64,000 bases of DNA from positions 91,410-155,409 of the forward strand of contig LCNZ01000007.1 in assembly GCA_001002325.1 (NCBI GenBank), written 5' to 3'. This stretch comes from Candidatus Amesbacteria bacterium GW2011_GWB1_47_19. GTDB taxonomy: Bacteria; Patescibacteriota; Microgenomatia; CAZETR01; Amesbacteraceae. A program made the translations under genes and the position numbers. This document shows positions 31,893-47,641 of the stretch, one piece after another. The notes below the pieces were generated by a model that had not been told where the DNA came from, ran no database searches, and saw only the letters and a list, made by a program, of their open reading frames with translations. The first letter of the stretch is position 1. Each line of letters starts with the position of its first letter.

Positions 31893-32171
31893 TTACCATC
31901 CGATAAGTTTGTCGGCTTTAGCAGCGGGGATACCTTTGCCTGATTTAATCTCTTTGATTCCCTTTTTGATAGATGTAACAAATTCTTTATCAGACATTAT
32001 TTTCATAGTCTCTAACCACCCTTCGTATTCTTCAAACGGCATAATGACAACTTTGGTTTTACCGCGTAGAGTAATGGTGAATTGGCGGAGTTTATCCGAA
32101 GCTTCATCCAAAAGCTGATAGAAATTAGCTCTAGCTTCGTGGGCTTGGAGAGTGGAACTTAATTGGGTCAC
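31893..32171 (-). CDS. Type II antitoxin, Phd/YefM family.
   Basis: 92-aa acidic protein with a Phd-like N-terminus (ARANFYQLLDEA). It is adjacent to the RelE-like gene. Confidence 0.55.
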   Translation of the reverse strand: MTQLSSTLQAHEARANFYQLLDEASDKLRQFTITLRGKTKVVIMPFEEYEGWLETMKIMSDKEFVTSIKKGIKEIKSGKGIPAAKADKLIGW

Positions 32172-32195
32172 GATATAATGGTACTACTAGTGGTA

Positions 32196-33281
32196 CTACT
32201 TTGTCAAGAGGCGGGGGATAAACGGGGAGAGGCGGGTGAGAACTTCGTAAGCGATATTACCCGTGGATTTTGCCAAGTCCCAGGCACTCTGATTAGAACC
32301 CAATATTTCTACTGTTTTTCCCAATGGATTGGCCACATTAGATAAGTCCAAAGAGATAAAGTTCATAGCAACTCTGCCAATAATCGGGGTGGATTTATTA
32401 TTTATATACACCAGGCCTTTATTTGCCAGACGGATATCTAAGCCGTCACTATACCCTAAGGGTATCAGACCCATAACCTTTTTTTGATTCGTGGTATAGG
32501 TTGCACCATATCCCACCGTTTCTTCTGTGGATAAGTTACGGACTAAAACAATTTTAGATTTCCATAGGATAGCTGGTTTTAGAGCAGGAATAATGGTGAG
32601 GCTAGGGTTTGGAGAAAGACCATAAATTGTAATTCCCGGGCGGACGAGATCCAGGTGGGTTTGGGAATAGTTGAAAATGGCGGCAGAGTTGGCGCAGTGG
32701 GCCAAAACGGCGGGAAAAAGATATTTGGTTTGGGAGACGGTTTGGAGGAAAACATCGAGTTGTTTGAGGGTGGCTATTTTGTTTGTATCGGCGCTGTGAA
32801 AATGAGTGTAAATACCTTCAAGAGTCAGATGGGGGGATCTTTTGATTAAAGCCAGAGCTGATAGCAGTTCGATGGGGGAAAGACCTAAGCGGTTCATGCC
32901 GGTATTGACTTTGAGATGAATGGAGATAGAGGATCGAGATAGAGATAGAGATTGAAGAAAATCGAGTGAGTGGACACATAAGGAGATGTGATGTTTGGCG
33001 ACGAGGAGAAAGTCTGACGGAGAAACCGGGGCAGTGATCAAGATGGGTGTTTTTAAACCTAATTTTCTGATAGTTAGAGCTTCTGAAATGGTGTTTACGC
33101 CAAAGAAATCGACGTGGGGTGCAAGCACCGGAGCGGCGATGTTCAGTCCGTGGCCATAGGCGTTGGCTTTGACCATAGCCATAATTTTGGCGGATTTGGG
33201 AATTTTCCGGCGGAGCACGTGCAGGTTGTGACGGAGAGCAGAGGCAGAAATTTCTATCCAATGGAGAGGGGAATCTCCCAT
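32196..33281 (-). CDS. alr: Alanine racemase.
   Basis: PLP-binding motif AMVKANAYGHG, 361 aa. Confidence 0.85.
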   Translation of the reverse strand: MGDSPLHWIEISASALRHNLHVLRRKIPKSAKIMAMVKANAYGHGLNIAAPVLAPHVDFFGVNTISEALTIRKLGLKTPILITAPVSPSDFLLVAKHHISLCVHSLDFLQSLSLSRSSISIHLKVNTGMNRLGLSPIELLSALALIKRSPHLTLEGIYTHFHSADTNKIATLKQLDVFLQTVSQTKYLFPAVLAHCANSAAIFNYSQTHLDLVRPGITIYGLSPNPSLTIIPALKPAILWKSKIVLVRNLSTEETVGYGATYTTNQKKVMGLIPLGYSDGLDIRLANKGLVYINNKSTPIIGRVAMNFISLDLSNVANPLGKTVEILGSNQSAWDLAKSTGNIAYEVLTRLSPFIPRLLTK

Positions 33282-34335
33282 GCTTGCGTATTATAATGCA
33301 GGCATGACAAAAATGAGAGTAGGGTTGGTGTTTGGGGGCAGATCCGGAGAGCATGAGGTGAGTGTAAGGTCGGCGAAATCCATTTATGAAGCGCTGGATA
33401 AGAATAAATATGAAGTGGAACTTTTGGGAGTGGATAAGACCGGGCAGTGGCACAGAATGGACCAGAAATGGCTACCGAAAGGGGCGGAGATGAAAGCGTT
33501 GCCCAGCGGGGAAAAGGGGTTGGCGGTGCAGGAAGAGAAGGTGGATATATTTTTTCCGATTATCCACGGAACTTTCGGAGAGGATGGGACACTACAAGGT
33601 CTCTTTGAACTTTTGGATGTGGCATATGTGGGGGCGGGGGTGCTGGGGTCGGCGGTCGGGATGGATAAGGATGTGCAAAAGAGATTGTTGATTCAGGCCG
33701 GGATACCGGTAGCAAATTATGTCAGTCTAAGTTTAAGTACAAGTTCAGGAAACCCAAAGATTCCTTTTAAATTCCCGGTGTTTGTGAAACCGGCGAATAT
33801 GGGATCGTCGGTGGGGATAAGTAAGATAGAGAAAGAGATAGAGGTAGAGAAAGCGATAAAATTGGCTTTTCAGTATGACACTAAAGTGATTGTTGAGGAG
33901 GCGGTAGAGGGCAGGGAGATTGAAATATCAGTGTTAGGAAATGAGGAGCCGACAGCATCGTTACCGGGGGAAGTGATACCCCGGGGGCATGAGTTTTATG
34001 ACTATGAGGCCAAATATATTGATGAGAATGGGGCGGAATTGGTGATTCCGGCCAGATTGTCAGCAGAACAGATAAAGATATGTCAGGAATTAGCGGTTAA
34101 AACATTTAAAGTTTTGGAATGTTCCTGTATGGCACGGGTGGACATGTTCCTGACTCCGGAGGGTAAATTTGTGGTTAACGAAATTAACACCTTACCGGGA
34201 TTTACCAATATTTCGATGTACCCTAAGTTGTGGGAAGCGACGGGAATAAAATATGCCGATTTATTGGATAAACTTATCCGACTGGCGTTGGAAAAGAAGA
34301 AGGAAAAGGATAAATTGAAGAGAAGTTATTCTTGA
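33280..34335 (+). CDS. ddl: D-alanine--D-alanine ligase.
   Basis: N-terminal VGLVFGGRSGEHEVSVRSA and an ATP-grasp core (FVKPANMGSSVGIS). It contains an in-frame agtNNa x4 hexamer repeat (SLSLSTSS). Confidence 0.85.
   Translation: MLAYYNAGMTKMRVGLVFGGRSGEHEVSVRSAKSIYEALDKNKYEVELLGVDKTGQWHRMDQKWLPKGAEMKALPSGEKGLAVQEEKVDIFFPIIHGTFGEDGTLQGLFELLDVAYVGAGVLGSAVGMDKDVQKRLLIQAGIPVANYVSLSLSTSSGNPKIPFKFPVFVKPANMGSSVGISKIEKEIEVEKAIKLAFQYDTKVIVEEAVEGREIEISVLGNEEPTASLPGEVIPRGHEFYDYEAKYIDENGAELVIPARLSAEQIKICQELAVKTFKVLECSCMARVDMFLTPEGKFVVNEINTLPGFTNISMYPKLWEATGIKYADLLDKLIRLALEKKKEKDKLKRSYS
33724..33747 (+). repeat. agtNNa hexamer x4 (SLSLSTSS) in ddl.
   Basis: agtctaagtttaagtacaagttca. Confidence 0.5.
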
Positions 34336-34383
34336 GTAATGAACTTGACAAGTATTTAATGTGGTTATATACTTTGCATTATT

Positions 34384-34665
34384 ATGTATACAGTTACATT
34401 AACTCGGCAGGGACAGATTACCATACCATCGGGGATGAGGAAGAGTATGGACATTAAGGGGGGTGATAAATTGAACTTTATTGTTCGGGGAAAGGGAATT
34501 GAGGTGTCCAAAGCGACCGGTTGGGAGTCCTTAAGGGGCGTGCTGGTGGAATTTAAAGGAAATTATCCGACTAAGAGACAACTTGCCAGGGCTCATATAT
34601 CCGGTTTGAATCTAAGAACCCGAAAGGATGCAAAAAATACTAGTCGATACCAACGTTTTGCTTAG
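34384..34665 (+). CDS. AbrB/MazE/SpoVT-family antitoxin (VapB-like).
   Basis: Swapped-hairpin motif GQITIPSGMRKSMDIKGGDKL. It lies upstream of a PIN gene. Confidence 0.6.
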   Translation: MYTVTLTRQGQITIPSGMRKSMDIKGGDKLNFIVRGKGIEVSKATGWESLRGVLVEFKGNYPTKRQLARAHISGLNLRTRKDAKNTSRYQRFA

Positions 34666-34993
34666 GTATCTGGTAGACGGTGATACGTTACTAGAAAAAA
34701 TAGCTGATAAGGGTGTTGTGTGGCTGGTTGAGGAAGTCGTGATAGAGCTGGTGTTTGCGTTACAGGAGCACTATGGTCAATCCAGAGAGAAAATATTTGG
34801 ATGGGTAGTGGATTTACTTATGAAGCCAAATTGCGAAAGTAACAGAACTTTATTATTTAATACCTTGGCCGTTTACAGAGATCAAACTAACTTGAGTATT
34901 GTTGATGCATATTTATTTGCCTTGTCAGAAGAAAATAAAGTTGAATTGGTAACTTACGACAAGAAGCTTAAACGGAAATTGATTAAACAATAA
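34628..34993 (+). CDS. PIN-domain toxin (VapC-like).
   Basis: N-terminal ILVDTNVLL acidic motif, 121 aa. It overlaps the antitoxin gene. Confidence 0.6.
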   Translation: MQKILVDTNVLLRYLVDGDTLLEKIADKGVVWLVEEVVIELVFALQEHYGQSREKIFGWVVDLLMKPNCESNRTLLFNTLAVYRDQTNLSIVDAYLFALSEENKVELVTYDKKLKRKLIKQ

Positions 34994-36020
34994 CGACTTC
35001 GTATTCCAGATCAATTGAGAAATGTTTTTTGATGTCGGCGCGCATGGCCTCGGCGAATTCGTAAACTTCGGCACCCGTGGCACCGGGGTAGGTTACGATG
35101 ACTAAGGCGTGTTGATCGAAAGTGCCGACGTTACCGACTCTTTTGCCTTTCCAACCCAATTCATCGAGGAGTCTTCCGGCCGGTATTTTGACATAGTCGG
35201 AGGTAGCCAGGGCAGGATCGGTAAGTTTAGGGTAGTCCATGCCCGTAGTGGGGTAGTACTGAATATCCGGGATTTTATTTTGGAGATCGGCTAATTTGGT
35301 TTTGGTAATAAAAGGGTTTTTGAAGAAACTGCCGGCGGTACCCTGTTTGTGCCAATCGGGCATTTTTTGGGTACGGATGTTAATTACTGCACGGCTGACA
35401 TCCTGGACGGCGTAGGGAGGTTCAGCAATTTTTGCAATTTCCGTCTGAAGAGATTCGTAACGGGAATAATAGTCGAGTTTGGAGTGAGAAGATTTGGAAA
35501 GTCTGAAGGTAACTGAGGTAATTAAGAATTGATTTTTCAGTTCGTGTTTAAAGGTGCTATTCCGATATTTGAATTGACAATCGGAATTGGAGAGGATGTA
35601 AGATTTTTGGGCTGAGAGATTGAAATAATTTACAGAATCGATTGTTTGATCCACGGATTGGCCGTAGGCCCCGATATTTTGAATGGGAGCGGCTCCAACA
35701 CAGCCGGGGATAAGAGCCAGGTTTTCGATTCCCGACCAACTGTTTTCTGCGGTGTACATGACAAATTTGTGCCAGTTTTCACCGGCACCAACCTCGATGA
35801 CGACGGAATCTGCGGATTCTTTGAGGACATTTATCCCAGGAAGATTAATTTTGGCAACAGTTCCGGGAAAGTCTTTTGTAAATAGCACGTTTGCCCCCTC
35901 GCCCAGGAAAAAGACATTTTCGGAAGGGAGTTTTTTAATATCAGCCAAAGTATTTATTTCTATCAACTTTTCGGTTTTGGCGGGTACACGCAAAGTAGTA
36001 TATGGGGAGAGGTCAACCAT
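34983..36020 (-). CDS. murB: UDP-N-acetylenolpyruvoylglucosamine reductase.
   Basis: FAD-binding N-terminus (FLGEGANVLF) and the TAGSFFKNP motif. Confidence 0.75.
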   Translation of the reverse strand: MVDLSPYTTLRVPAKTEKLIEINTLADIKKLPSENVFFLGEGANVLFTKDFPGTVAKINLPGINVLKESADSVVIEVGAGENWHKFVMYTAENSWSGIENLALIPGCVGAAPIQNIGAYGQSVDQTIDSVNYFNLSAQKSYILSNSDCQFKYRNSTFKHELKNQFLITSVTFRLSKSSHSKLDYYSRYESLQTEIAKIAEPPYAVQDVSRAVINIRTQKMPDWHKQGTAGSFFKNPFITKTKLADLQNKIPDIQYYPTTGMDYPKLTDPALATSDYVKIPAGRLLDELGWKGKRVGNVGTFDQHALVIVTYPGATGAEVYEFAEAMRADIKKHFSIDLEYEVVIV

Positions 36021-36178
36021 TAGGGTTTAAATTCGATGATGAGGAAATTCTTTCTGGCGATTAATTTGAGTTTATCACCAATCTTTAGGCGAAACCTTTG
36101 CTTGATTTGTTGAGGTATTGCGAAAGTACCATTTTGGAAATGGATGGGGATTTCAAATGGAAGAGCTTTGTTAATCAT
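36020..36178 (-). CDS. Orphan AbrB/SpoVT-like small DNA-binding protein. Start is taken at the internal Met; the ORF track extends to 36262 and overlaps murA.
   Basis: C-terminal IPQQIKQRFRLKIGDKLKL swapped-hairpin motif. Confidence 0.35.
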   Translation of the reverse strand: MINKALPFEIPIHFQNGTFAIPQQIKQRFRLKIGDKLKLIARKNFLIIEFKP

Positions 36179-37463
36179 GGCGGTCGACGCGTTCGATTTT
36201 GGCTCCAAGGGAAGCAAAGCGGGAGGCGGGGTCTTCGTAACCGCGCTCGATGATTTCCGCATGGTCTATGATGCTTTCCCCTTCGGCGGCCAGAGCAGCG
36301 ATGAGTATGGACATGCCGGCCCGGATATCCGGGGAAGCCAGATGGCGGCCGACCAGGGGGGTGGGACCGGTAACCAGACAGCGGTGCGGGTCGCAGAGAG
36401 TGATATTAGCACCCATTGCCACCAGTTTGTCGGTGAAGAACATCCGGGTTTCGTACATCCAATCGTGCATCAAAACAGTTCCTTGGGTTTGGGTGGCCAG
36501 TACGATCAGAGGACTGAGCAGATCTGTGGGGAAACCCGGCCAGGGACGGGTCTGGAATTTTTGGCGGATGCCCAACTTCTCCGGATCGACTGAGAGCCGG
36601 GAAGGCAGGATTTTGAGGGTGTCACTTTTGGGCCAGGAATATTTAACGCCGAAGCGGGATAAGTAGAGCAGAATCATGCGCAGATCTTTGGGATCTACTG
36701 GAGAAATGGTGATAGTACCGCCGGTGGCGGCAGCCGCAATAGCGAAGGTGCCGGCGTCTATATAATCCGGGGAGACCGGATAGGTTACGGCTTTGAGATT
36801 GGGCGTGCCCAGGACGCTGATGATACCTGATCCCAAACCGGTGATTTCGGCTCCCATACGGGTCAGGAATTGCCCCAGATCGCCCACATGCGGCTCGCAG
36901 GCGGCATCTTCGATGGTAGTAGTGTTGGGTTGAGTAGAGGCCAGAATAAGGGCATTTTCTGTGGCTGTGACGGAAGCCTCGTCCAGAAAGACGGCGACGG
37001 GTTGTTTCGGGGGGGTGAAGCTGCCGGAGACGGTGTCATTGAGGATATCGAATTTTGCTCCCAGACGGGTCAGGGCATCCAGATGGGTGCCGATAGCCCT
37101 TTTGCCAATGACGTCACCACCGGGAAAGCCGATTTTGACCCGTCCGAATTTGGCCAGCAGGGGAGACAGGAACATGACGGAGGAGCGGACTTTGCGGGAT
37201 AATTCCGGGCTGACTTCCCAGTTGTTGCATCCGCGGGGATCGATAGTGATTTTAGGGGTGGCAAGGCCGGTGACTTTTGCCCCCAGAGATTCCAGAATTT
37301 CGGCCATGGCGGAGACGTCACGGATGACCGGGGCCCGGGTCAGAGTTACCGGACCGTCTGCCAAAAGAGAAGCAGCCATGAGTTTGAGAACGGAGTTTTT
37401 ATTACCGGAGATGGTAATGTGACCTGAGAGCGGCGTCCCTCCGGTAACAAAAAATTGGCCCAT
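36171..37463 (-). CDS. murA: UDP-N-acetylglucosamine 1-carboxyvinyltransferase.
   Basis: N-terminal ISGNKNSVLKLMAASLLA, EPT-fold, 430 aa. Confidence 0.85.
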   Translation of the reverse strand: MGQFFVTGGTPLSGHITISGNKNSVLKLMAASLLADGPVTLTRAPVIRDVSAMAEILESLGAKVTGLATPKITIDPRGCNNWEVSPELSRKVRSSVMFLSPLLAKFGRVKIGFPGGDVIGKRAIGTHLDALTRLGAKFDILNDTVSGSFTPPKQPVAVFLDEASVTATENALILASTQPNTTTIEDAACEPHVGDLGQFLTRMGAEITGLGSGIISVLGTPNLKAVTYPVSPDYIDAGTFAIAAAATGGTITISPVDPKDLRMILLYLSRFGVKYSWPKSDTLKILPSRLSVDPEKLGIRQKFQTRPWPGFPTDLLSPLIVLATQTQGTVLMHDWMYETRMFFTDKLVAMGANITLCDPHRCLVTGPTPLVGRHLASPDIRAGMSILIAALAAEGESIIDHAEIIERGYEDPASRFASLGAKIERVDRHD

Positions 37464-39794: not shown

Positions 39795-41078
39795 TCAGCC
39801 AGCAATAGTAGATCCAGTAATAAACTTTATATATTGTTCTGCTTCGTCGCGGTAGTCTTTGAAAAGGGTGAAACTGGGAGCGGCGGGGGAGAGGAGGCAA
39901 ATTTCCCCTGATGCAGTATGATCCAGTGCCAGTTTGACTGCATCCTGCATACTTTCAGTGTAATAGTACCCGATGTTCGGGTTTTGTTTAACAGAGATAA
40001 TTTCACTCCAAATCCGGGGTCCGGTGGCGGGGAAAGCAATAAGTGTCTTTATACCTGAAGATAGTATCTTTTTTGCTAATTCGGAGTAATTTTGTTTGCG
40101 ATCATGGCCGCCGGCGATAAGAGTGGTGACTTTGGGGTGTAATGCGTCTATAGCAGCGATTGTCGCTTCAGGAATGGTCGCCAGAGTGTCGGAGTAAAAC
40201 TCAATTCCTTTTTTTGTACCTACCGGTTGCAGGCGGGTATCCAGGGGGGTGAATTCTTTGACCGCGGCGTAGAGTTTATCCTTCGGGAGATTAAGAATTT
40301 CAGCGACTTTCAGGGCGGGAATGATATTGAGCCGATTGTGTTTGCCAAGGAGTTTGGTTTTTGTAGCCGGACCGAAGTCATTAAAGGAAAATATAATTTT
40401 TTTGGCAAGGGTGGGAATATCTGTTTGAGTGATCAGATAATCTTTGGCAGATTGGAAATTGGTAATATTGTATTTGGCATTTTTATATTCCTCGAAGCCT
40501 GTGTGGTAGTCCAAATGATCCGAATAAATGGCCTGCAAAACTGCGATATGTGGGCTGGTTTGCAGATCCATCAGCTGGTAAGAAGACAGCTCTAACACGA
40601 CCCAGGTGTCTGGGGTGATTTCCGGCAGGAAATCCAGCGCTGGACGACCGATATTGCCTACCAATACTACCGGTAAACTCGATTTTTTGATAACTTCATA
40701 TATCAGACTGGTAGTAGTAGATTTACCCTTTGTGCCGGTAATACCGATAGTATTTTTGCTGGGGCAGACCTCAAAGAATATTTCCGTATGGGAAGTGAAA
40801 ACTGCACCCCTTTTTTTAGCGGCTACTAATTCAGGTTTATGGGGAGAGATACCGGGACTTTTAATTACCAATTTCCAATTTTCAATTTTCAAATAATTTT
40901 CACCAAACTGTATATGTATCAGGGGGTCGTCGGGGAGCCAGTCGGGGGTTTTTTGATCGGCCAGACCGATAATCAGTTCAGGAAATTTCGCACGCAGATA
41001 TTTGTAAGTGGATTGGCCTTCCCGGGCAAAACCCAATATGAGAACTTTATCGGATTGGGAAATTTTATCGATAATCAT
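39795..41078 (-). CDS. murD: UDP-N-acetylmuramoylalanine--D-glutamate ligase.
   Basis: Mur ligase P-loop IGITGTKGKSTTTS. It contains an in-frame caatttt-family insertion (LKIENWKL) near the N-terminus. Confidence 0.7.
   Translation of the reverse strand: MIIDKISQSDKVLILGFAREGQSTYKYLRAKFPELIIGLADQKTPDWLPDDPLIHIQFGENYLKIENWKLVIKSPGISPHKPELVAAKKRGAVFTSHTEIFFEVCPSKNTIGITGTKGKSTTTSLIYEVIKKSSLPVVLVGNIGRPALDFLPEITPDTWVVLELSSYQLMDLQTSPHIAVLQAIYSDHLDYHTGFEEYKNAKYNITNFQSAKDYLITQTDIPTLAKKIIFSFNDFGPATKTKLLGKHNRLNIIPALKVAEILNLPKDKLYAAVKEFTPLDTRLQPVGTKKGIEFYSDTLATIPEATIAAIDALHPKVTTLIAGGHDRKQNYSELAKKILSSGIKTLIAFPATGPRIWSEIISVKQNPNIGYYYTESMQDAVKLALDHTASGEICLLSPAAPSFTLFKDYRDEAEQYIKFITGSTIAG
40868..40893. repeat. 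caatttt-family repeat inside murD (coding on the minus strand as LKIENWKL).
   Basis: ccaatttccaattttcaattttcaaa. Confidence 0.7.
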
Positions 41079-41091: not shown

Positions 41092-41147
41092 AACCTCACC
41101 TCTAACCCCTCTCCTAATTCAGGAGAGGGGAACCGAAGGGGTGAGGT
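41092..41147 (+). repeat. Nested palindromic repeat, copy C. It overlaps the 3' end of the PP-loop gene, and the TGA stop lies in its loop.
   Basis: cctcacctctaacccctctcctaattcaggagaggggaaccgaaggggtgagg, with inner and outer inverted repeats. Confidence 0.7.
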
Positions 41148-42477
41148 ATTGGGATTTTAATATATCTTCGAATTCCTTTGGCATGTTGGGATTATCCTGC
41201 CAGGAGGAGAGGATCCGGTCTAGTCCTTTTCCGGTAAAAGCCGCATTGGCTTCGGCGCGGGTGAGGACGCATTCGAAAGGTTTGACGGGGTTTTTGCCCA
41301 GCAGGTCATCCATAATACTTATATTTTCGGGCAGGTCAGGGGGATATGAGCCCATTATTTCCGACACTTTATCTTTACCTATAAAACAAGCCAGCATCAT
41401 GGCGGTGGAAACGCATTTGGGACAGTGTTGACACCATAAGCCTTTGGGATGGCTTTTGGGATCCAGTTTGAAGTTGGTGTTGCAGCTGGAAAAGATTTTG
41501 AAATATTGTGGATAGCGGGAAAAGATTTTGGTAATTTGGATTTCGTAGAGAGGACGGAGGAAGGAAAAATATGAGATATGAGAATTGAGAAATAAGAGAT
41601 ATTGGTTGAAATCAGTTTCAAATTCCAGTGACTTGGAATATTGATGGTTGATGGTGTGGTCCAAATATTCGGTGTTACCTTCATCACTGCTGCGCTCGTT
41701 ACTGAAGGTGATATATTTGCATTCGGTAATTTGGGCTGCCAATAATGCTTCAAATGAATGTGTAGCAGTGATAGGGACATGACCATTCAAATAGCCTAGT
41801 GAATTAAGTTCATGGAGATGGGGATCGATGGTGCTGGTCAGGATAAAAGGCGACAGGCTTGCGGTCTTGCAGACGTTTAACATCAGAGGGACAGGGTCGA
41901 CCAGGAAGGGAATAACATTGTAGTGGGGTTTGAGGAGTTCGAGGGTGACGATGGAGTCTTTGCCCCCACCGACTGGAACCAGAACTTTGTTATTCCCCCA
42001 TATTTTCTTAAATACCTCACCCTCTTCTCCCTCTCCTAATCTAGGAGAGGGATGGGGAGAGGTTTTAAAAGCGCTTAATGCCAGAAAATCCTTTTCGGTA
42101 AAATCAATTTGATTCTTGTAAAAATATTCCCCCATGCCTTTTAAAAACAATTTTTCCCAAAAAGAAATTTGAGAGGCAGACAGGTTTCCGGCCCGGATTT
42201 CGATGACGGGGGAGCAGGTGGATTTCCAGTAGGAGGGCATTAAAGACAGACCCATATGGAAGATGAGATTATCCAGGGTTGGTAGTACCTCACCCCTTTG
42301 ATTCCCCTCTCCTAATTTAGGAGAGGGGTTAGGGGAGAGGTTAATTTTATGGGTGAAGTGGTGATCAGGTGGGATGGAATAGAAAAATTTAATTTCCAAA
42401 TCCCCGTTTACTATTTCGTACTCAAACTTCTCGTAAATAAATTTGGGGTATTTATGGCGAAGTTCCTGATACTTCAT
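41119..42477 (-). CDS. PP-loop (SGGxDS-type) ATP pyrophosphatase family protein of unknown specificity, embedded between murD and murC.
   Basis: VLVPVGGGKDS PP-loop at about residue 165 and a downstream CQHCPKC. Two in-frame copies of the palindromic repeat encode SP(H/N)PSP(R/K)LGEG..GEV. Confidence 0.5.
   Translation of the reverse strand: MKYQELRHKYPKFIYEKFEYEIVNGDLEIKFFYSIPPDHHFTHKINLSPNPSPKLGEGNQRGEVLPTLDNLIFHMGLSLMPSYWKSTCSPVIEIRAGNLSASQISFWEKLFLKGMGEYFYKNQIDFTEKDFLALSAFKTSPHPSPRLGEGEEGEVFKKIWGNNKVLVPVGGGKDSIVTLELLKPHYNVIPFLVDPVPLMLNVCKTASLSPFILTSTIDPHLHELNSLGYLNGHVPITATHSFEALLAAQITECKYITFSNERSSDEGNTEYLDHTINHQYSKSLEFETDFNQYLLFLNSHISYFSFLRPLYEIQITKIFSRYPQYFKIFSSCNTNFKLDPKSHPKGLWCQHCPKCVSTAMMLACFIGKDKVSEIMGSYPPDLPENISIMDDLLGKNPVKPFECVLTRAEANAAFTGKGLDRILSSWQDNPNMPKEFEDILKSQYLTPSVPLS
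42012..42065 (+). repeat. Nested palindromic repeat, copy D (inside the PP-loop CDS, in frame).
   Basis: cctcaccctcttctccctctcctaatctaggagagggatggggagagg. Confidence 0.7.
42287..42342 (+). repeat. Nested palindromic repeat, copy E (inside the PP-loop CDS, in frame).
   Basis: cctcacccctttgattcccctctcctaatttaggagaggggttaggggagagg. Confidence 0.7.
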
Positions 42478-43826
42478 AGAGATTCAAATATCTGCCGGGA
42501 GAGTTTGTGGGAGAGGCCACTGCCCATCACCAGGATAACCGTGTTAGATAGAGATATTCGCGCTTCGCTAAGAGAGCGGAGATAGAGAATAATATCATTA
42601 AATTCTGGAATATAGCGGCAATTATCGTGTTTGGAGGCGGCGGTGATATCCGCGCCGGAAAAATCACCGGGGTCGGTTTCTCGGGAGGCGAATATTTTTG
42701 AAATGATAACCTTATCGGCAGCTCTAAGACTTTCGGGTAGTTGGGGGAGGAGGGTGCGCAATCGGGTGAAGGTGTGGGGTTCGATGACGGCAATAACCTG
42801 GTCCTGTGGGTGGAGTTGTTTGACGCCATTGATGGTGGCAGCGAAGGCTGTCGGGTGGTTGGCATAATCATCGTAGATCTTAACCCCATTTTTTTCTCCG
42901 ATTAATTCCAGCCGACGTCCGATACCGGAGAATTGTTTAAGAGTTGAGTTTAAGTCTGAGTGATTAATATTCAGAATTTCGGCCAGTTTTATGATACCCA
43001 GAGCATTAGATATGTTGTGGCGGCCGGGAATTTTCAGTGAGTACTTGTGTCTGTGGTATTCGAAAGAAGTTGAGTCGGGGGTAGGCTCGATATTATTAGT
43101 ATCTTTGAGTGAGTAGTAGTGGGTGGCGGGGGGTAATCGGAGCTGGGTGATAAGGGGAGAATCGCGATTAACAATAATGTGCCCTCCGGGTTTGAGGCTG
43201 TTAATAAAATTTTGATACGTATCCAAAAGATTTTCCTCGCTGGTGAAAAATTCGGGGTGATCCATTTCGATATTGTTAAGAATGATGATATCCGGGCGGT
43301 AAGAGGCGAAATTTTCGTGAAATTCGTCTGCTTCGGATATGAAATAATCGGATTTGCCCAGACGAAAATTGTTGTGCCAGACAAGGACAGTGGCACCGAC
43401 CTCTACCGTGGGGTCTAAGCCGGCAGTTTCCAATAATATTCCCGCCAAAGCAGTGGTGGTGGATTTGCCATGTGTGCCGGCAATACAAATCACGAATTTG
43501 TTTTTGTGCAGATATTTACCCATAAATTCCTGCCATTTCATGAGAATGCTTTTCTCCCGTCCCAGAGCGGTTTCGGGGTGATCGTCGTTTTGGTAAAACA
43601 CGGCAGGCGTCACAGCGAGGATGTCAATATCTTTAAGATGGCCGGAATTGTGGCCCATTGAGACAGTGATGCCAAGTTTCTTGACCTTTTCAATATAGGG
43701 TGTATCGGTTTGAAGATCACAACCGGTGACGATGTATCCCCGGGCATGAGCAATCTGGGCTACAGCTGACATACCGGAGCCGCCGATACCCATAAAATGG
43801 ATTCTGAGGGGGCGTTTTTCTTGCAC
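42474..43826 (-). CDS. murC: UDP-N-acetylmuramate--L-alanine ligase.
   Basis: N-terminal IHFMGIGGSGMSAVA and Mur ligase P-loop IAGTHGKSTTTA. Confidence 0.85.
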   Translation of the reverse strand: MQEKRPLRIHFMGIGGSGMSAVAQIAHARGYIVTGCDLQTDTPYIEKVKKLGITVSMGHNSGHLKDIDILAVTPAVFYQNDDHPETALGREKSILMKWQEFMGKYLHKNKFVICIAGTHGKSTTTALAGILLETAGLDPTVEVGATVLVWHNNFRLGKSDYFISEADEFHENFASYRPDIIILNNIEMDHPEFFTSEENLLDTYQNFINSLKPGGHIIVNRDSPLITQLRLPPATHYYSLKDTNNIEPTPDSTSFEYHRHKYSLKIPGRHNISNALGIIKLAEILNINHSDLNSTLKQFSGIGRRLELIGEKNGVKIYDDYANHPTAFAATINGVKQLHPQDQVIAVIEPHTFTRLRTLLPQLPESLRAADKVIISKIFASRETDPGDFSGADITAASKHDNCRYIPEFNDIILYLRSLSEARISLSNTVILVMGSGLSHKLSRQIFESL

Positions 43827-43839: not shown

Positions 43840-44880
43840 ATGGATAACGTGCACTTCTATTTCGGTCTGATAATCCTGGCTTTCGTTATTACGTTCTTAT
43901 TGATGATACCGTTTATCGGTTTTTTGTACCGGATGAAATTCCAGCGTTCGGCGGAAACGCAGGAAGTGAGAAAGTCTGCCACCAGGGCTTTTTATAAGAT
44001 CAGAGAAATGCACGCCGTTAAAGTAGGTGTACCGACGGGTGGTGGAATTCTGGTTTCTGCAGTGGTGATCGTAATATTCGGTGTAGTTTTTTTGATTCGT
44101 AACGGTCAAATGATCTCCGGGCATGAGTTGTGGCGCGAACTCGGAGTGATACTGCTGACTTTTTCAGGTTTCGGAGCTTTGGGTTTTTATGACGATGTAA
44201 TAAAGATTTTCGGATTTGCAAAAACCGGCTTTTTCGGATTGAGAATGCGGCAAAAGTTTCTATTGCAGTTATTGGTGGGACTGGCTGTGGGGGCGTTTTT
44301 ATATTTTGGGTTGGGAATTGATATAATAAATATTCCCATTGTGGGAAGATATTTTCATCTGGAATGGGGGATAATTCCCCTGGCTGCATTTCTGATTGTG
44401 GGTTTTGCTAATTCTTTTGATTTTACTGACGGTCTGGACGGACTTTCCGGCGGACTTTTGATGATTTGCTTAATGGCGTTTGTGGTGATCGCCTCGAGGG
44501 AGTTGGATGAAGTGCTGCTGACTTTTATTGTTTTGTGGTTGGGTGCCCTGATGGCGTATTTATATTTCAACATCTTTCCTGCGAGGATAATGCTGGGTAA
44601 TGTGGGAGGTCTGGCTTTCGGAGCCACGCTGGCAGTTATTGGACTGCTGTCAGGAAAGACGGTGGCATTACTGGTTATAGGAGGCATCTTTCTGGCTGAG
44701 GGGATGAGCAGTCTGTTGCAGCTTTTCAGCAAGAAGTTTATGAAAAAAAGGATTTTTCCCATTGCCCCATTTCACCATTGGTTACAGCTTCTGGGTTGGG
44801 AGGAACCAAAGATCGTGGCCAGAGCCTGGCTGGCGGGATTTATTTTGGCGGTATTCGGTGTGTGGCTGGCAGTGCTATAA
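43840..44880 (+). CDS. mraY: Phospho-N-acetylmuramoyl-pentapeptide transferase.
   Basis: Polytopic membrane protein with NSFDFTDGLDGLSGG and a HHW motif. Confidence 0.85.
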   Translation: MDNVHFYFGLIILAFVITFLLMIPFIGFLYRMKFQRSAETQEVRKSATRAFYKIREMHAVKVGVPTGGGILVSAVVIVIFGVVFLIRNGQMISGHELWRELGVILLTFSGFGALGFYDDVIKIFGFAKTGFFGLRMRQKFLLQLLVGLAVGAFLYFGLGIDIINIPIVGRYFHLEWGIIPLAAFLIVGFANSFDFTDGLDGLSGGLLMICLMAFVVIASRELDEVLLTFIVLWLGALMAYLYFNIFPARIMLGNVGGLAFGATLAVIGLLSGKTVALLVIGGIFLAEGMSSLLQLFSKKFMKKRIFPIAPFHHWLQLLGWEEPKIVARAWLAGFILAVFGVWLAVL

Positions 44881-44917
44881 GTATTGACATTGTATATATA
44901 TTGTATATACTCGTCGT

Positions 44918-45205
44918 ATGGACACGGCGGTGATTAATGTCAGAACGGATCCCAAACTGAAGCGGGCTGCTATGCAAACTGCCCGGGAGTTGGGGTTTAG
45001 CTTAAGTGCTTTGGTGAATGCATATTTAATGAATCTGATAAAAACCAGGACTATTCATATTTCTGATTCGGAAGAACCGAGTGAATATTTGATTCAGGCT
45101 ATTAGGGAAGCGGAGGAAGAACGAAAAAGGGGAAAATATTATTCTTTCGATTCTGCTGATAAGGCGTTGAAGTTTTTGGATAAGGTAATTGCAGGGAAGA
45201 AATAA
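44918..45205 (+). CDS. Type II antitoxin, RelB/DinJ family.
   Basis: Ribbon-helix-helix-like N-terminus (INVRTDPKLKRAAMQTARELGFSLSALV). It lies upstream of a YafQ-like gene. Confidence 0.55.
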   Translation: MDTAVINVRTDPKLKRAAMQTARELGFSLSALVNAYLMNLIKTRTIHISDSEEPSEYLIQAIREAEEERKRGKYYSFDSADKALKFLDKVIAGKK

Positions 45206-45207
45206 AT

Positions 45208-45468
45208 ATGCATGTTGACTATGCGGAGAAGTTTATTAAACAATTAAAAAAGGCTTCGAAACCAGTGCAAAAATCGGTACGGGAAAGAGTTGAAATATAT
45301 ATATCTGACAAGTTTCACCCGCTCCTGAATAACCATGCACTGTCCGGAAAATATCAGGGATACAGAAGTATTAATGTTACTGGTGACTGGCAAGCGGTTT
45401 TTCGGATGATCGATGATGACACGGTATATTTTGAAATGCTCGGTACACACAGTCGGTTGTACAAATAG
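45208..45468 (+). CDS. Type II toxin, YafQ/RelE family mRNA interferase.
   Basis: 86 aa ending ...FRMIDDDTVYFEMLGTHSRLYK. Confidence 0.6.
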   Translation: MHVDYAEKFIKQLKKASKPVQKSVRERVEIYISDKFHPLLNNHALSGKYQGYRSINVTGDWQAVFRMIDDDTVYFEMLGTHSRLYK

Positions 45469-45492
45469 GGAGATATTAGTAGAATTGGGGCG

Positions 45493-46368
45493 GTGGAAAT
45501 TGAGAAGGTGATCAAGGAGTTTGTGGACGAGTTTTGTGATTTGGTATGGAAGGAGTTGGGAGGAAAGGGAATAAAGGGAATTGGAGTAACCGGAAGTTAT
45601 GCTCGGGGTGATTACTCCAAAACAAGACCTGATGTTAATTTTGCAGTATTTGGGACATCGGATGCTGCGGTTTCATGGAAAATAGGCCGGGTGGCATCCG
45701 GTTTAAATAAAAAATATTCCCAGTGGGTAAATTTGCGTCCGGAATATCATCCGGAAAGATTTGCAGCTCCGTGGGGGAGAGATATAAATAAAACCGATTT
45801 GTTTTTTAAAATAGCGTTTTTTGATGTTAAGGAGAGGGATTTATTAATGCCCTTCGGGCGGCCGGGATATGTATTGGAAGGTCACAAATTGTCGATAAAA
45901 ATGTGGCATGGTAGAAATTTATTTGAGGATATCATTGTTACATCGAGTAATGATGAAGTAATTAAGGGGTGCAATTATATGTATTCACAGTGGGTGAGAG
46001 CAATAAAACTTACCCCTTTGGCATATGACTTGGAGCAGGATGCGGATCTGTTCTTTGGCGAAGCATTAGTATGGGGAAAAATTGCGGTTCAGCAGTATGC
46101 TTGGGTACAGGGGATAAAAAACGGACTGGATTATGTGAATGATGAGGATAGGATGAAAATATTTAGTCGGGTGCATGACAAAGAAAAACTCCGGGGTTTT
46201 TTTAAGCTACCCAGGAAAGAGCAGGAGATGGTGAATTTAATATTAGATGCAAGGAAGAAATATCAGGAATGGAAGACAGATTCCAAGATGGCAGAAAAGC
46301 TATATCAAAGTTCATATCACCTTCTAAATTATTTCTGGGATGAGACAAAGAAATTGATGCCTAAATAA
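45493..46368 (+). CDS. Nucleotidyltransferase-domain protein (pol-beta superfamily, MNT/KNTase-like).
   Basis: GSYARGDYSKTRPDVNF matches hG[GS]x9-13Dh[DE]h, but the second acidic residue is replaced by N. At 291 aa it is larger than a minimal MNT. Confidence 0.45.
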   Translation: MEIEKVIKEFVDEFCDLVWKELGGKGIKGIGVTGSYARGDYSKTRPDVNFAVFGTSDAAVSWKIGRVASGLNKKYSQWVNLRPEYHPERFAAPWGRDINKTDLFFKIAFFDVKERDLLMPFGRPGYVLEGHKLSIKMWHGRNLFEDIIVTSSNDEVIKGCNYMYSQWVRAIKLTPLAYDLEQDADLFFGEALVWGKIAVQQYAWVQGIKNGLDYVNDEDRMKIFSRVHDKEKLRGFFKLPRKEQEMVNLILDARKKYQEWKTDSKMAEKLYQSSYHLLNYFWDETKKLMPK

Positions 46369-46396
46369 TACTGAAGAGGGATGACTTTTTGGTAAG

Positions 46397-47641
46397 ATGG
46401 GGGATATGGATAAAGTGAAACTGAAAAAGGAAATTAGGTGGTGGGGACAGAGGGTGAAGAATGTGTATCATTTCCTGGTATCGGCGGCGATGGTAATAAA
46501 ATACGGATATCCGGCGGGAAAACTGACAGTAATCGGAGTGACGGGGACGGACGGAAAGACGACGACATGCACTCTGATATACGAAATACTCAAGGCTGCA
46601 GGGTACAAAACAGCTTTGATTTCCACCGTGGTAGCGAAAATAGGTGATCAGGAGATAGAAACCGGTCTGCATACGACGAATCCGGATGCGAGACAGATGC
46701 AGCCTTTGTTAGCGCGAATGGTAAAGGCGGGAGTGACGCATCTGGTGATGGAGGTGACAGCGCACGGACTGGACCAATACCGGGTATGGGGGTGCAATTT
46801 TTATATCGGGGTACTGACGAATATAACCCATGAACATCTGGATGATTTTGTGGATATGAGGAGATATATATCTGCTAAAGCCAAGTTGTTTAGGGGAGTA
46901 AAGTTTGCCGTATTGAATGGGGATGATCTGTCGTTTAGGAATTTACAATTTTCAATTTACAATTTTCAATCAAATTCAAAACCCCAAATAATTAAATATT
47001 CAAAAACAAAATTAAAAAATATCAGTCCAGCGCTTTTTGGGGGATACAATTTATATAATATCGGCGCGGCGGAAGCGGTGTGCCGAATATTAGAAATTAG
47101 AAGTGAGATAGTAGAATTGACAGTAGGTAATTTTTCAGGAGTACCGGGGAGGAGGGAAGAAGTGAAGGTGGGGCAAAAATTCAGGATATACGTTGATTTT
47201 GCTCATACTCCCAATGCTTTGGAACAGATGCTAAGGACACTTCAAGCGGAGCAGGCACAGCAGGCAAAGAAAGGTAAAATAATTCTGGTTTTTGGGTGCA
47301 CGGGGGAGAGAGATAAAGATAAAAGACCTATGATGGGAGAGATTGCCGCGAGGCTGGCGGATGTGGTGATAGTTACTTCGGACGATACGAGGATGGAAGA
47401 TCAAAATGAGATTGCCCGGCAAATTGTCGCCGGGATAGAAAAGAGAGACAGAAACAGAGTAATTATTGAAAATGACAGGCGGAAAGCGATTGAAATGGCA
47501 GTGGGTAAGGCCAAACCCGGCGACGCTGTATTATTGGCAGGAAAAGGGCATGAAAAGTCTATTCTGATAGGTAAAACCGAGAGACATTGGTCGGACAAAG
47601 AAGAGGTAATACAGGCTTTTGAAAAGCAGGTTTGTCTGTGA
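46397..47641 (+). CDS. murE: UDP-N-acetylmuramoyl-L-alanyl-D-glutamate--2,6-diaminopimelate (or L-Lys) ligase.
   Basis: P-loop VIGVTGTDGKTTT and the MurE DFAHTPNAL motif. An AT-rich in-frame insertion (NLQFSIYNFQSNSKPQIIKYSKTKLKN) lies at 46941-47030. Confidence 0.7.
   Translation: MGDMDKVKLKKEIRWWGQRVKNVYHFLVSAAMVIKYGYPAGKLTVIGVTGTDGKTTTCTLIYEILKAAGYKTALISTVVAKIGDQEIETGLHTTNPDARQMQPLLARMVKAGVTHLVMEVTAHGLDQYRVWGCNFYIGVLTNITHEHLDDFVDMRRYISAKAKLFRGVKFAVLNGDDLSFRNLQFSIYNFQSNSKPQIIKYSKTKLKNISPALFGGYNLYNIGAAEAVCRILEIRSEIVELTVGNFSGVPGRREEVKVGQKFRIYVDFAHTPNALEQMLRTLQAEQAQQAKKGKIILVFGCTGERDKDKRPMMGEIAARLADVVIVTSDDTRMEDQNEIARQIVAGIEKRDRNRVIIENDRRKAIEMAVGKAKPGDAVLLAGKGHEKSILIGKTERHWSDKEEVIQAFEKQVCL
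46941..47030 (+). repeat. caatttt-family AT-rich module inside murE, in frame.
   Basis: aatttacaattttcaatttacaattttcaatcaaattcaaaacccc... Confidence 0.7.

What the first reader, a model, noticed from the sequence alone, without database searches (positions are those of the whole stretch)
41119..42477. Uncharacterised PP-loop ATP pyrophosphatase wedged between murD and murC
This is a 452-aa protein with VLVPVGGGKDS (SGGxDS-type PP-loop) at about residue 165 and a later CQHCPKC. It is transcribed in the same direction as murD and murC and lies between them. Canonical dcw clusters have no PP-loop enzyme here. Plausible roles are amidation of a peptidoglycan precursor carboxylate (an asparagine-synthetase-like adenylation chemistry) or a tRNA thiolation enzyme that landed here by chance. 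Sequence alone cannot decide between them. It is also the gene that carries the in-frame palindromic inserts.
Basis: inference. Interest (0 to 1): 0.55.

Follow-up and report, generated by a model that had tools for sequence, protein, structure and literature searches.

The report
MurL peptidoglycan glutamate epimerase homologue
The gene between murC and murD is a distant homologue of MurL, a known ATP-dependent enzyme that flips L-glutamate to D-glutamate on the cell-wall precursor, so it is a new member of a characterised family in a Microgenomates-type bacterium, not an unknown enzyme.

Summary
A 452-aa ORF (41119-42477, minus strand) lies between murC and murD. It carries an invariant PP-loop-like motif (PVGGGKDS) and a CxxCxxC cluster.

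It is not uncharacterised. [quoted passage not shown] An identical database protein carries precomputed Pfam domains PF26298 and PF26299, as do all listed homologues.

MurL works with MurD2, a ligase that adds L-Glu. MurL then converts that residue to D-Glu, using ATP and releasing AMP (Feng 2017, via PMC8788868).

Context agrees:
- A MurD gene follows the MurL homologue in 71 of 80 genome loci from several phyla.
- Natural fusions of MurL to MurD-like ligases exist, plus single MurC-type and MurB fusions.
- All 69 MurL-linked MurDs analysed carry MurD2-type residues. The window's ligase matches four of five and keeps Asp where X. oryzae MurD2 has Glu197.
- The window encodes MurA-F, Alr, Ddl and MraY, with no glutamate racemase match.

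Profile and fold comparisons place the catalytic half with PP-loop enzymes (TtuA, LarE, QueC). This fits the proposed carboxylate adenylation.

The amidation and tRNA-thiolation readings are rejected. The two "inserts", plus a third copy at the stop codon, belong to a dispersed palindromic repeat family. Interest is modest.

The parts
41119..42477 (-). [quoted passage not shown]
   Evidence: ORF. NCBIfam NF041275 MurL E 7.6e-70, 235.6 bits, aa 12-415 against profile positions 9-391 of 447. An identical database protein (P0001) carries PF26298+PF26299. AF2 model pLDDT 87.7, pTM 0.88.
42070..42477 (-). N-terminal alpha/beta domain (aa 1-136), role unknown, possibly substrate binding; interrupted by insert 1
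   Evidence: Secondary structure and high pLDDT, except for residues 56-64. Conserved columns F13, F41, F73, G76, Y83-K85, W107, G114, G116, N122-F126.
41122..42000 (-). Catalytic PP-loop / QueC-like domain plus C-terminal helical region (aa 160-452)
   Evidence: Foldseek top hits are PP-loop enzymes. Family profile against TtuA gives E 5.2e-5. hhalign against E. coli QueC gives E 4.9e-5 over aa 224-395.
41953..41985 (-). PP-loop motif VLVPVGGGKDS (aa 165-175), a GGGKDS variant of SGGxDS
   Evidence: Invariant P168, G170-G172, K173, D174. Across 80 loci: GGGKDS in 72, canonical SGGKDS in 3. Lies in a strand 164-168 / helix 173-182 unit. Aligns with TtuA ILVAVSGGKDS.
41413..41484 (-). Four-cysteine cluster C332 ... 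C349-x2-C352-x2-C355, a putative metal site
   Evidence: Invariant. CxxCxxC present in 79 of 80 loci. All four Cys align with four Cys of E. coli QueC.
42286..42344 (-). In-frame palindromic element, copy 1 (about aa 46-65, ...SPNPSPKLGEGNQRGEV...)
   Evidence: RNA hairpin -36.9 kcal/mol, z -5.1. Residues 56-64 have pLDDT below 50. Absent from P0025 and most homologues.
42012..42068 (-). In-frame palindromic element, copy 2 (about aa 138-156, ...SPHPSPRLGEGEEGEV...), in the linker between the two domains
   Evidence: Hairpin -32.5 kcal/mol, z -4.4. Residues 140-159 have pLDDT below 50. Similar peptide at the same site in P0005, P0015 and P0002. L117 and L155 hold the element in 449-codon read-through frames whose peptide is identical to the P0015 site-2 segment.
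41093..41148 (-). Palindromic element, copy 3: encodes the last nine codons (YLTPSVPLS) and the TGA stop of murL, and fills part of the 40-nt spacer before murD
   Evidence: Hairpin -34.6 kcal/mol, z -5.4. Not called as a terminator.
39795..41078 (-). [quoted passage not shown] Signature residues D187, L299, R327, P401, F403
   Evidence: TIGR01087 301.6 bits. Residue table: at E. coli K348 all 69 MurL-linked MurDs have R; at K319 all have L or I; at L416 all have F or Y; at D182, 63 have E and 6, including this one, have D. The P0025 fusion has the same signature.
42474..43826 (-). murC, upstream gene of the murC-murL-murD run, with an ATGA overlap onto murL
   Evidence: TIGR01082 340.4 bits. 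Coordinates.
30415..37463 (.). Other cell-wall precursor genes nearby: Mur ligase (MurF-like) 30415-31668 (-), alanine racemase 32196-33281 (-), Ddl 33280-34335 (+), MurB-size ORF 34983-36020 (-), MurA-size ORF 36171-37463 (-)
   Evidence: Pfam hits. The MurA and MurB ORFs are, and their homologues sit in the matching positions in L001. They were not run through a family search here.
43840..47641 (+). mraY (43840-44880) and murE (46397-47641), divergent from murC
   Evidence: Pfam Glycos_transf_4. TIGR01085 382.2 bits.

Best explanation
The ORF encodes a MurL-type UDP-N-acetylmuramoyl-L-alanyl-L-glutamate epimerase, and the murD next to it is a MurD2-type ligase. [quoted passage not shown] MurL then uses its PP-loop to bind ATP and adenylate the alpha-carboxylate of that terminal L-Glu, releasing PPi. 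The acyl-adenylate makes the C-alpha proton acidic. [quoted passage not shown]

This supplies the D-Glu of peptidoglycan without a glutamate racemase. The catalytic half is a divergent QueC/TtuA-like PP-loop domain with a four-cysteine site, probably a structural Zn site as in QueC. The N-terminal domain probably holds the UDP-MurNAc-peptide.

Shown here: homology to MurL, the PP-loop and Cys4 features, synteny, fusions and the ligase signature. Taken from the literature on X. oryzae MurL: the reaction, the ATP-to-AMP stoichiometry and the one-way direction. Inferred: the adenylation step, the catalytic base, the metal, and that this particular protein is active despite its inserts.
For: (1) The only NCBIfam match is NF041275 MurL, E 7.6e-70, nearly full length. 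Five homologues, four of them from named Patescibacteria lineages, give 205-280 bits to the same model and to no other non-ligase family.
(2) All listed homologues carry precomputed PF26298+PF26299, and several are named MurL epimerase by JGI.
(3) Synteny: a MurD hit lies downstream on the same strand in 71 of 80 loci (Patescibacteria, Bacteroidales, Clostridia, Acidobacteria). The median gap is about 28 nt, and 5 are single ORFs.
(4) Fusions: P0025 is MurL (55% identical) plus MurD (58% identical) in one chain. About a fifth of the top 150 cluster representatives are 740-1,060 aa. Eight were tested: six are fused to MurD-like or unspecified Mur ligases in either order, one to a MurC-type ligase and one to MurB.
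(5) Ligase signature: all 69 MurL-linked MurDs have Arg at E. coli K348 and Leu/Ile at K319, and 63 have Glu at D182. These are residues reported to control L- versus D-Glu choice (PMC8788868). The window ligase has R327, L299, P401 and F403.
(6) Pathway logic: the window encodes MurA-F, Alr, Ddl and MraY. No MurI was found by phmmer with E. coli MurI or by PROSITE motifs in six frames, and no racemase or class-IV aminotransferase among 20 ORFs scanned.
(7) PP-loop: invariant GGGKDS, TtuA profile hit E 5.2e-5, Foldseek neighbours TtuA, LarE, ArtA, ArgG, GuaA, QueC hhalign E 4.9e-5 with four aligned Cys. This fits the AMP-forming reaction reported for MurL.
(8) The inserts lie in low-confidence loops of an otherwise confident model, and every family-invariant residue is intact.
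Against: The score to NF041275 (235.6 bits) is far below NCBI's equivalog cutoff of 700. That cutoff is tuned to Xanthomonadales, so orthology to the assayed enzymes is inferred, not certified. I could not retrieve an experimentally tested MurL sequence to align directly (one search failed to reach one).

The window's ligase keeps Asp at the E. coli D182 position. The review reports that the stereospecificity of X. oryzae MurD2 was changed in the E197D mutant, so strict L-Glu specificity is not assured.

Absence of murI could be checked only in this 64-kb window. At least one Saccharibacterium is reported, by title only, to have a working glutamate racemase (reference seen).

Fold matches to PP-loop enzymes are partial and weak (best E 4.9e-3, TM 0.16-0.22), and the QueC hhalign probability is 68%. 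No biochemical data exist for any Patescibacteria MurL in the held literature.
Confidence: 0.82

Rival explanations
1. A MurL homologue with a proofreading role, not a biosynthetic one. The Asp-variant MurD would mainly use D-Glu made by a racemase encoded elsewhere in the genome, and MurL would convert occasional L-Glu mis-incorporations to D-Glu.
For: The window MurD has Asp, not Glu, at the D182 position. The review reports that stereospecificity was changed in the X. oryzae E197D mutant. A PgeF-like editing-factor gene (Cu-oxidase_4) lies nearby at 38052-38777. murI absence is untested outside the window.
Against: The same Asp-variant ligase is covalently fused to MurL in P0025 and L027, which argues for obligatory coupling. 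Lys319 of canonical MurD is replaced by Leu, as in all 69 MurL-linked ligases. No MurI was found in the window, although it holds the rest of the pathway.
Confidence: 0.08
2. An amidating PP-loop enzyme (asparagine-synthetase or MurT/GatD-like chemistry) that converts a carboxylate of the stem peptide to an amide.
For: PP-loop adenylation chemistry is shared with the amide- and nitrile-forming enzymes QueC and ArtA, which are among the nearest relatives.
Against: There was no Asn_synthase or glutaminase hit at a permissive threshold in any of 29 members, and no glutaminase partner appeared among the 25 window ORFs given to a family search. The characterised homologue epimerises and does not amidate. 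The partner ligases carry the L-Glu-selecting residues, which creates a need for an epimerase.
Confidence: 0.04
3. A tRNA thiolation or modification enzyme (TtcA/TtuA, ThiI, TilS or MnmA type) located among mur genes by chance.
For: The best PDB sequence and fold match is TtuA. The cysteine cluster could in principle hold an Fe-S cluster, as in TtuA and LarE.
Against: Similarity to TtuA covers only about 47 residues around the PP-loop. No tRNA-modification family passes any threshold in Pfam or NCBIfam. Linkage to MurD occurs in 71 of 80 loci, and the eight long forms tested are all fused to Mur enzymes.
Confidence: 0.02
4. A decaying gene inactivated by three insertions of a palindromic mobile element.
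For: Three of the four element copies in the 64-kb window lie in or at this one gene. One copy replaces the native C-terminus and supplies the stop codon.
Against: The reading frame is intact over 452 codons. Every family-invariant residue is retained. The inserts map to disordered surface loops and a variable linker in a confident model. Relatives tolerate the element at the same linker. The family's C-terminal tail is variable anyway.
Confidence: 0.04

Closest known systems
[quoted passage not shown] 2017, reviewed in PMC8788868 and PMC5808125)
   Same: Full-length homology to the MurL model (E 7.6e-70). Same two-domain architecture, PF26298+PF26299. Encoded next to a MurD-type ligase, as XOO_1319 is next to XOO_1320. 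A PP-loop fits the reported ATP-to-AMP requirement.
   Different: Very divergent: 235.6 bits against an equivalog cutoff of 700. It comes from a Microgenomates/Patescibacteria-type genome, a group not listed in the published distribution. It carries three copies of a palindromic element. Its partner ligase has Asp where X. oryzae MurD2 has Glu197. Activity is untested.
[quoted passage not shown]
   Same: The window murD has Arg at the R358 position, Pro at P433 and Phe at F435, and it lacks the Lys equivalent to E. coli K319. It is adjacent to murL.
   Different: Asp instead of Glu at the E197 position, a minority state seen in 6 of 69 MurL-linked ligases. NCBIfam would still name it a D-glutamate ligase (TIGR01087 above cutoff).
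QueC (7-cyano-7-deazaguanine synthase) and the QueC-like nitrile synthetase ArtA
   Same: PP-loop ATPases that adenylate a carboxylate. hhalign E 4.9e-5 over 136 aligned columns, with all four Cys aligned. ArtA is among the Foldseek hits. Weak Pfam QueC hits in 4 of 29 members.
   Different: No hit at Pfam thresholds. MurL has an extra N-terminal domain and a C-terminal helical region, a different substrate and a different outcome (epimerisation, not amide or nitrile formation). That the four QueC cysteines bind Zn is from my memory of the B. subtilis QueC structure, not a test made here.
TtuA/TtcA and LarE, PP-loop sulfur-transfer enzymes with [4Fe-4S] clusters
   Same: Best sequence-profile and fold matches to the PP-loop segment, and they have a cysteine-ligated metal site.
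   Different: Similarity is confined to the nucleotide-binding core. There is no tRNA or sulfur-relay context. The genomic linkage is to Mur enzymes.
MurI glutamate racemase and D-amino-acid aminotransferase, the canonical D-Glu sources
   Same: Same physiological end: D-Glu at position 2 of the stem peptide.
   Different: Unrelated folds. They act on free glutamate, need no ATP and are reversible. None was detected in the window.
Rickettsia palindromic elements (RPEs), for the inserts only
   Same: Short palindromic repeats inserted in-frame in protein-coding genes and read through as surface loops (comparison from general knowledge). Here 47 of 126 metagenomic copies lie in read-through frames of at least 150 codons.
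   Different: Unrelated sequence and host lineage. Only one stop-free frame per strand, giving PSP(K/N/R)LGEG. The mobilising enzyme is unknown.

Membership tests
[quoted passage not shown] | Full-length sequence homology to the curated MurL model | tested here: met
   NF041275 E 7.6e-70, 235.6 bits, aa 12-415 against profile positions 9-391 of 447; the only NCBIfam hit.
[quoted passage not shown] | Score above NCBI's equivalog cutoff (700 bits) | tested here: not met
   235.6 bits. Five homologues, four from named Patescibacteria lineages, score 205-280 bits. The model is Xanthomonadales-specific, so this limits automatic naming and does not argue against homology.
[quoted passage not shown] | Two-domain architecture PF26298 + PF26299 | tested here: met
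   Precomputed for the 100%-identical protein P0001 and all listed homologues. These models are not in the local Pfam copy, which returned nothing.
[quoted passage not shown] | Encoded with a MurD2-type ligase | tested here: met
   murD starts 40 nt downstream on the same strand. The same arrangement occurs in 71 of 80 loci, 5 of them fused. Fusion P0025.
[quoted passage not shown] | Genome lacks glutamate racemase and D-amino-acid aminotransferase | tested here: inconclusive
   None found in the 64-kb window. The rest of the genome is not available.
[quoted passage not shown] | ATP/Mg-dependent one-way L-to-D epimerisation with AMP release | not testable with these tools
   Biochemistry is known only for the X. 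oryzae, Micromonospora and Salinispora enzymes.
MurD2 (L-Glu-adding MurD), neighbour gene | Glu at the X. oryzae E197 position (E. coli D182) | tested here: not met
   The window has D187. Of 69 MurL-linked ligases, 63 have E and 6 have D.
MurD2 (L-Glu-adding MurD), neighbour gene | Arg at the R358 position (E. coli K348) | tested here: met
   R327; 69 of 69. Not exclusive: the S. agalactiae MurD structure 3lk7 also has Arg here.
MurD2 (L-Glu-adding MurD), neighbour gene | Loss of the Lys equivalent to E. coli K319 (K319T lets E. coli MurD accept L-Glu) | tested here: met
   L299; 69 of 69 have L or I. The four canonical MurDs compared (E. coli, 3lk7, 7sir, 4buc) keep Lys.
MurD2 (L-Glu-adding MurD), neighbour gene | Pro and Phe at the P433 and F435 positions | tested here: met
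   P401 and F403. The review reports that mutating these two does not change specificity, so they carry little weight.
PP-loop ATP pyrophosphatase (adenine nucleotide alpha-hydrolase superfamily) | SGGxDS motif in a strand-loop-helix at the start of the nucleotide-binding domain | tested here: met
   Variant GGGKDS (Ser1 replaced by Gly) between strand 164-168 and helix 173-182. Canonical SGGKDS in 3 of 80 homologues. Aligns to the TtuA SGGKDS at E 5.2e-5.
PP-loop ATP pyrophosphatase (adenine nucleotide alpha-hydrolase superfamily) | Fold similarity to solved PP-loop enzymes | tested here: inconclusive
   Top Foldseek hits are TtuA, LarE, ArtA, ArgG and GuaA, with probability up to 1.0. However, the best E is 4.9e-3 and TM is 0.16-0.22 over 113-190 columns.
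tRNA-modifying PP-loop families (TtcA/TtuA, ThiI, TilS, MnmA) | Family-level profile match beyond the PP-loop, and tRNA-related context | tested here: not met
   No Pfam or NCBIfam assignment. At E <= 1, one of 29 members touches tRNA_Me_trans. The PDB profile hit covers only 47 residues. The context is mur genes.
QueC | Match to PF06508 at the gathering threshold | tested here: not met
   Only 4 of 29 members match, best E 0.036. hhalign E 4.9e-5, probability 68%. It is a relative in fold and chemistry, not a member.

The most novel reading that the evidence does not exclude
The MurD2/MurL route may not be a rarity of a few proteobacterial and actinobacterial genera, as the 2021 review states. 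It may be a major, perhaps the main, source of peptidoglycan D-Glu across Patescibacteria and in many Bacteroidales and Clostridia, often as MurL fusions to MurD-like ligases. MurL, described by its discoverers as lacking known domains, may be a divergent QueC-like PP-loop adenylating enzyme with a conserved Cys4 metal site. Neither point appears in the literature held here. The first would weaken the case for MurD2/MurL as a narrow-spectrum antibiotic target.
Probability: 0.45. Interest if true: 0.5.

Novelty: new member of a known kind. Interest (0 to 1): 0.3.

Why it matters
For this window the result is mainly a correction of annotation. The "unknown PP-loop enzyme" is MurL. The adjacent gene, which automatic pipelines would call a D-glutamate ligase, is most likely an L-glutamate ligase. 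Together they explain how a small-genome bacterium can make D-Glu-containing peptidoglycan without a glutamate racemase.

Three by-products go beyond the window.
- The family is large: 1,540 clusters at 50% identity. It spans Patescibacteria, Bacteroidales, Clostridia and others. This contrasts with the published view of a pathway limited to a few genera, which is the basis for proposing it as a narrow-spectrum drug target.
- The PP-loop and Cys4 assignment gives a structural reason for the unusual ATP-to-AMP requirement of this epimerase, and it points to residues to mutate.
- Loss of the Lys at E. coli MurD position 319, seen in 69 of 69 MurL-linked ligases, is a simple marker that could separate MurD2 from MurD in genome annotation.

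Tried and rejected
- **Local Pfam scan of the ORF:** no hit. The relevant models, PF26298 and PF26299, are newer than the local copy.
- **Sequence search of the PDB with the single protein:** no hit at E <= 1, so no MurL structure is available for comparison.
- **Second homologue search:** I used the 'Vitreimonas' homologue (L033/P0121) as a stepping stone to reach named Xanthomonas or actinobacterial MurLs. It returned only Patescibacteria-like proteins. This was a dead end and suggests the record's taxonomic label is doubtful.
- **Peñalver et al. 2024 on a Saccharibacteria glutamate racemase:** not held.
- **Literature searches:** searches for MurL in Patescibacteria, for the Pfam accessions and for newer mechanistic work found only the two Dairi-group reviews.
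- **Promoter and terminator scan of 38500-44200:** nothing above the shuffled expectation. The element at the murL-murD junction is not called as a terminator.
- **MurI search:** phmmer with E. coli MurI plus PROSITE Asp/Glu-racemase signatures over all six-frame ORFs of the window found nothing. This says little about the rest of the genome.
- **Palindromic element in related loci:** none in the 80 related murL loci (924 kb).
- **Readings considered and rejected:** tRNA thiolation enzyme, amidotransferase and pseudogene (see rival explanations).
Full report
**Observation.** It lies between a MurD-type ligase (39795-41078, TIGR01087 301.6 bits) and MurC (42474-43826, TIGR01082 340.4 bits), all on the minus strand. 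The murC stop and this ORF's start overlap as ATGA, and murD starts 40 nt after its stop. VLVPVGGGKDS is at residues 165-175 and CQHCPKC at 349-355. It is a real, conserved gene. A word-indexed search found more than 6,900 homologues. An exhaustive profile search of 1.84 billion cluster representatives found 1,540 with E <= 1e-30.

**What it is.** The local Pfam copy and a sequence search of the PDB return nothing, which is probably why the protein looks uncharacterised. NCBIfam gives a single, strong hit: NF041275, MurL, UDP-N-acetyl-alpha-D-muramoyl-L-alanyl-L-glutamate epimerase. The E-value is 7.6e-70 at 235.6 bits, covering residues 12-415 against profile positions 9-391 of 447. A database protein identical to the ORF, and every listed homologue, carries precomputed Pfam families PF26298+PF26299, and JGI already names several of them MurL epimerase. 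Five homologues, four from named Patescibacteria lineages, score 205-280 bits against the same model. All of these are below NCBI's equivalog cutoff of 700, which is tuned to Xanthomonadales. Homology is therefore secure, but functional identity is inferred.

**What MurL does (from the literature).** MurL was discovered in Xanthomonas oryzae, which lacks glutamate racemase and D-amino-acid aminotransferase. [quoted passage not shown] MurL (XOO_1319) then converts the terminal L-Glu to D-Glu. It consumes one ATP, forms AMP, and works only in the L-to-D direction. The authors proposed adenylation of the alpha-carboxylate and stated that MurL lacks known conserved domains (PMC8788868 and PMC5808125).

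**Context.**
- In 80 genome loci encoding relatives, a MurD hit follows on the same strand in 71. These loci come from many Patescibacteria lineages including the cultured Minisyncoccus archaeiphilus, and from Bacteroidales, Lachnospiraceae, Oscillospiraceae and Acidobacteria. The median gap is about 28 nt, and five are single MurL-MurD ORFs.
- The closest genome locus (L001, Amesbacteria) has the same gene order as the window, as a mirror image.
- P0025 is a 783-aa natural fusion. Its N-terminal half is 55% identical to this ORF and its C-terminal half is 58% identical to the window's MurD.
- About a fifth of the top 150 cluster representatives are 740-1,060 aa long. Of the eight long forms tested, six are fused to MurD-like or unspecified Mur ligases in either order, one to a MurC-type ligase and one to MurB.
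- The window itself encodes a MurF-like ligase, alanine racemase, Ddl, MurB, MurA, MurD, MurC, MraY and MurE within about 18 kb. It has no match to E. coli MurI or to the Asp/Glu-racemase signatures in any frame. Every cytoplasmic step is thus represented and D-Ala has a source, so this ORF occupies the D-Glu slot.

**The partner ligase.** The review reports that Glu197 and Arg358 of X. oryzae MurD2 (Asp182 and Lys348 in E. coli MurD) control Glu chirality, and that K319T lets E. coli MurD accept L-Glu. I aligned 69 MurL-adjacent MurDs with E. coli MurD.
- All 69 have Arg at the K348 position.
- All 69 have Leu or Ile at the K319 position.
- All 69 have Phe or Tyr at the L416 position.
- At the D182 position, 63 have Glu.
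- Four canonical MurDs (E. coli and PDB entries 3lk7, 7sir, 4buc) all keep Lys at the K319 position.

The window's ligase has L299, R327, P401 and F403 but keeps Asp (D187). It shares this minority state with its nearest relative L001 and with L027, L038, L044 and L074. Because the L027 and P0025 fusions also carry Asp, this variant clearly works together with MurL. Whether it is strictly L-Glu-specific remains open.

**How it probably works.**
P168-x-GGGKD174 is invariant. Across the 80 loci the motif is GGGKDS in 72 and the canonical SGGKDS in 3.
- An AlphaFold2 model (pLDDT 87.7, pTM 0.88) places the motif between strand 164-168 and helix 173-182.
- A family profile matches the PP-loop segment of TtuA at E 5.2e-5.
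- The Foldseek neighbours are TtuA, LarE, the QueC-like nitrile synthetase ArtA, argininosuccinate synthetase and GMP synthase. The matches are partial and weak, with best E 4.9e-3.
- hhalign against E. coli QueC gives E 4.9e-5 (probability 68%) over residues 224-395. The four invariant cysteines C332, C349, C352 and C355 align with four QueC cysteines. From memory, those four form the Zn site of QueC.

QueC adenylates a carboxylate, so a QueC-like core fits the proposed acyl-adenylate mechanism and the ATP-to-AMP stoichiometry. The inferred sequence has four steps. The PP-loop binds ATP. The Glu alpha-carboxylate is adenylated. The acidified C-alpha proton is exchanged, with candidate bases among the invariant C403, H233, H278, E261 and K282. 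Hydrolysis then releases AMP and the D-Glu product.

**The inserts.** Both belong to a roughly 56-nt nested palindrome with core CCCTCTCCTRRATTAGGAGAGGG. The copies lie at 42286-42344 and 42012-42068. A third copy at 41093-41148 supplies the last nine codons and the TGA stop, and a fourth lies near 5820-5875. Each folds into a strong hairpin of -30 to -37 kcal/mol. The two internal copies coincide exactly with the only low-confidence segments of the model (56-64 and 140-159). They fall in variable linkers and are absent from P0025. All invariant residues are intact, so the gene looks functional.

The element is absent from 924 kb of related murL loci. Its exact core occurs in at least 119 metagenome contigs, many from groundwater samples. 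Only one frame per strand is free of stop codons, and it encodes PSP(K/N/R)LGEG. Of 126 copies, 47 lie inside read-through frames of at least 150 codons. This resembles the Rickettsia palindromic elements.

**Comparison and verdict.** The protein is a divergent member of the MurL family in a Microgenomates-type genome. The closest named homologues are Amesbacteria and Microgenomates. The window's uniform positive GC skew matches a published property of order UBA1400 (PMC7143001). The amidation reading is rejected: there is no glutaminase or Asn-synthase signal, and the characterised homologue epimerises. The tRNA-thiolation reading is rejected: similarity is limited to the PP-loop, and linkage to mur genes is pervasive.

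**Limits.** There is no direct alignment to an assayed MurL. No whole-genome check for murI was possible. The fold evidence is moderate. No biochemistry exists for any Patescibacteria MurL in the held literature.

Noticed in passing
window 42286-42344, 42012-42068, 41093-41148, about 5820-5875; loci L084-L202: A roughly 56-nt nested palindromic repeat (core CCCTCTCCTRRATTAGGAGAGGG). Three of its four window copies lie in or at murL. Its exact core occurs in at least 119 metagenome contigs, many from groundwater. Only one frame per strand is stop-free and encodes PSP(K/N/R)LGEG. Of 126 copies, 47 lie inside read-through frames of at least 150 codons, resembling Rickettsia palindromic elements.
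   Followed up: partly
window 1-64000: GC skew is positive (+0.14 to +0.40) in every 2-kb bin although genes lie on both strands. This matches the one-directional strand composition disparity published for Microgenomates order UBA1400 (PMC7143001).
   Followed up: partly
window 54696-55391 (+): A 231-aa ORF with an IS200-like Y1 transposase domain (PF01797, E 9.3e-9). Y1 transposases of the RAYT type mobilise REP palindromes (general knowledge), so it is a candidate mobiliser of the palindromic element. Not tested.
   Followed up: no
window 38790-39773 (-): A radical SAM/SPASM protein encoded 21 nt downstream of murD on the same strand. No homologue was detected in any of the 80 related murL loci. 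Its role is unknown.
   Followed up: partly
window 37455-38777 (+): A NUDIX hydrolase (37455-38051) directly followed by a Cu-oxidase_4 (YfiH/PgeF-type) protein (38052-38777), sitting between murA and the murD operon. PgeF is known as a peptidoglycan editing factor (general knowledge).
   Followed up: no
window 44918-45468 (+) and 45493-46368 (+): A RelB/YafQ-type toxin-antitoxin pair sits between mraY and murE, followed by a 291-aa ORF with no Pfam hit.
   Followed up: no
window 43827-43839: Only 13 nt separate the divergent start codons of murC (GTG at 43826) and mraY (ATG at 43840), so the promoters must lie inside coding sequence or one start is mis-set. No promoter signal above chance was found.
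   Followed up: partly
proteins P0264 and P0248 (other genomes): MurL is fused not only to MurD-like ligases. P0264 is a MurB-MurL fusion. P0248 has an N-terminal ligase with the PF01225 domain typical of MurC-type enzymes.
   Followed up: partly
L033 / P0121; also L006, L055, L067: Genome records labelled Vitreimonas, Gammaproteobacteria or Pseudomonadales encode MurLs whose nearest relatives are Patescibacteria (Woesebacteria and others), and some have Patescibacteria-like MraY-MurL-MurD order. The taxonomic labels may be wrong.
   Followed up: no
L014 5592-5615 and 5788-5811: A different palindrome (CCCTCTCCCTGGTCAGGGAGAGGG) occurs twice just upstream of the murL homologue in an 'Actinomycetota' MAG. 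It may be a related repeat family.
   Followed up: no
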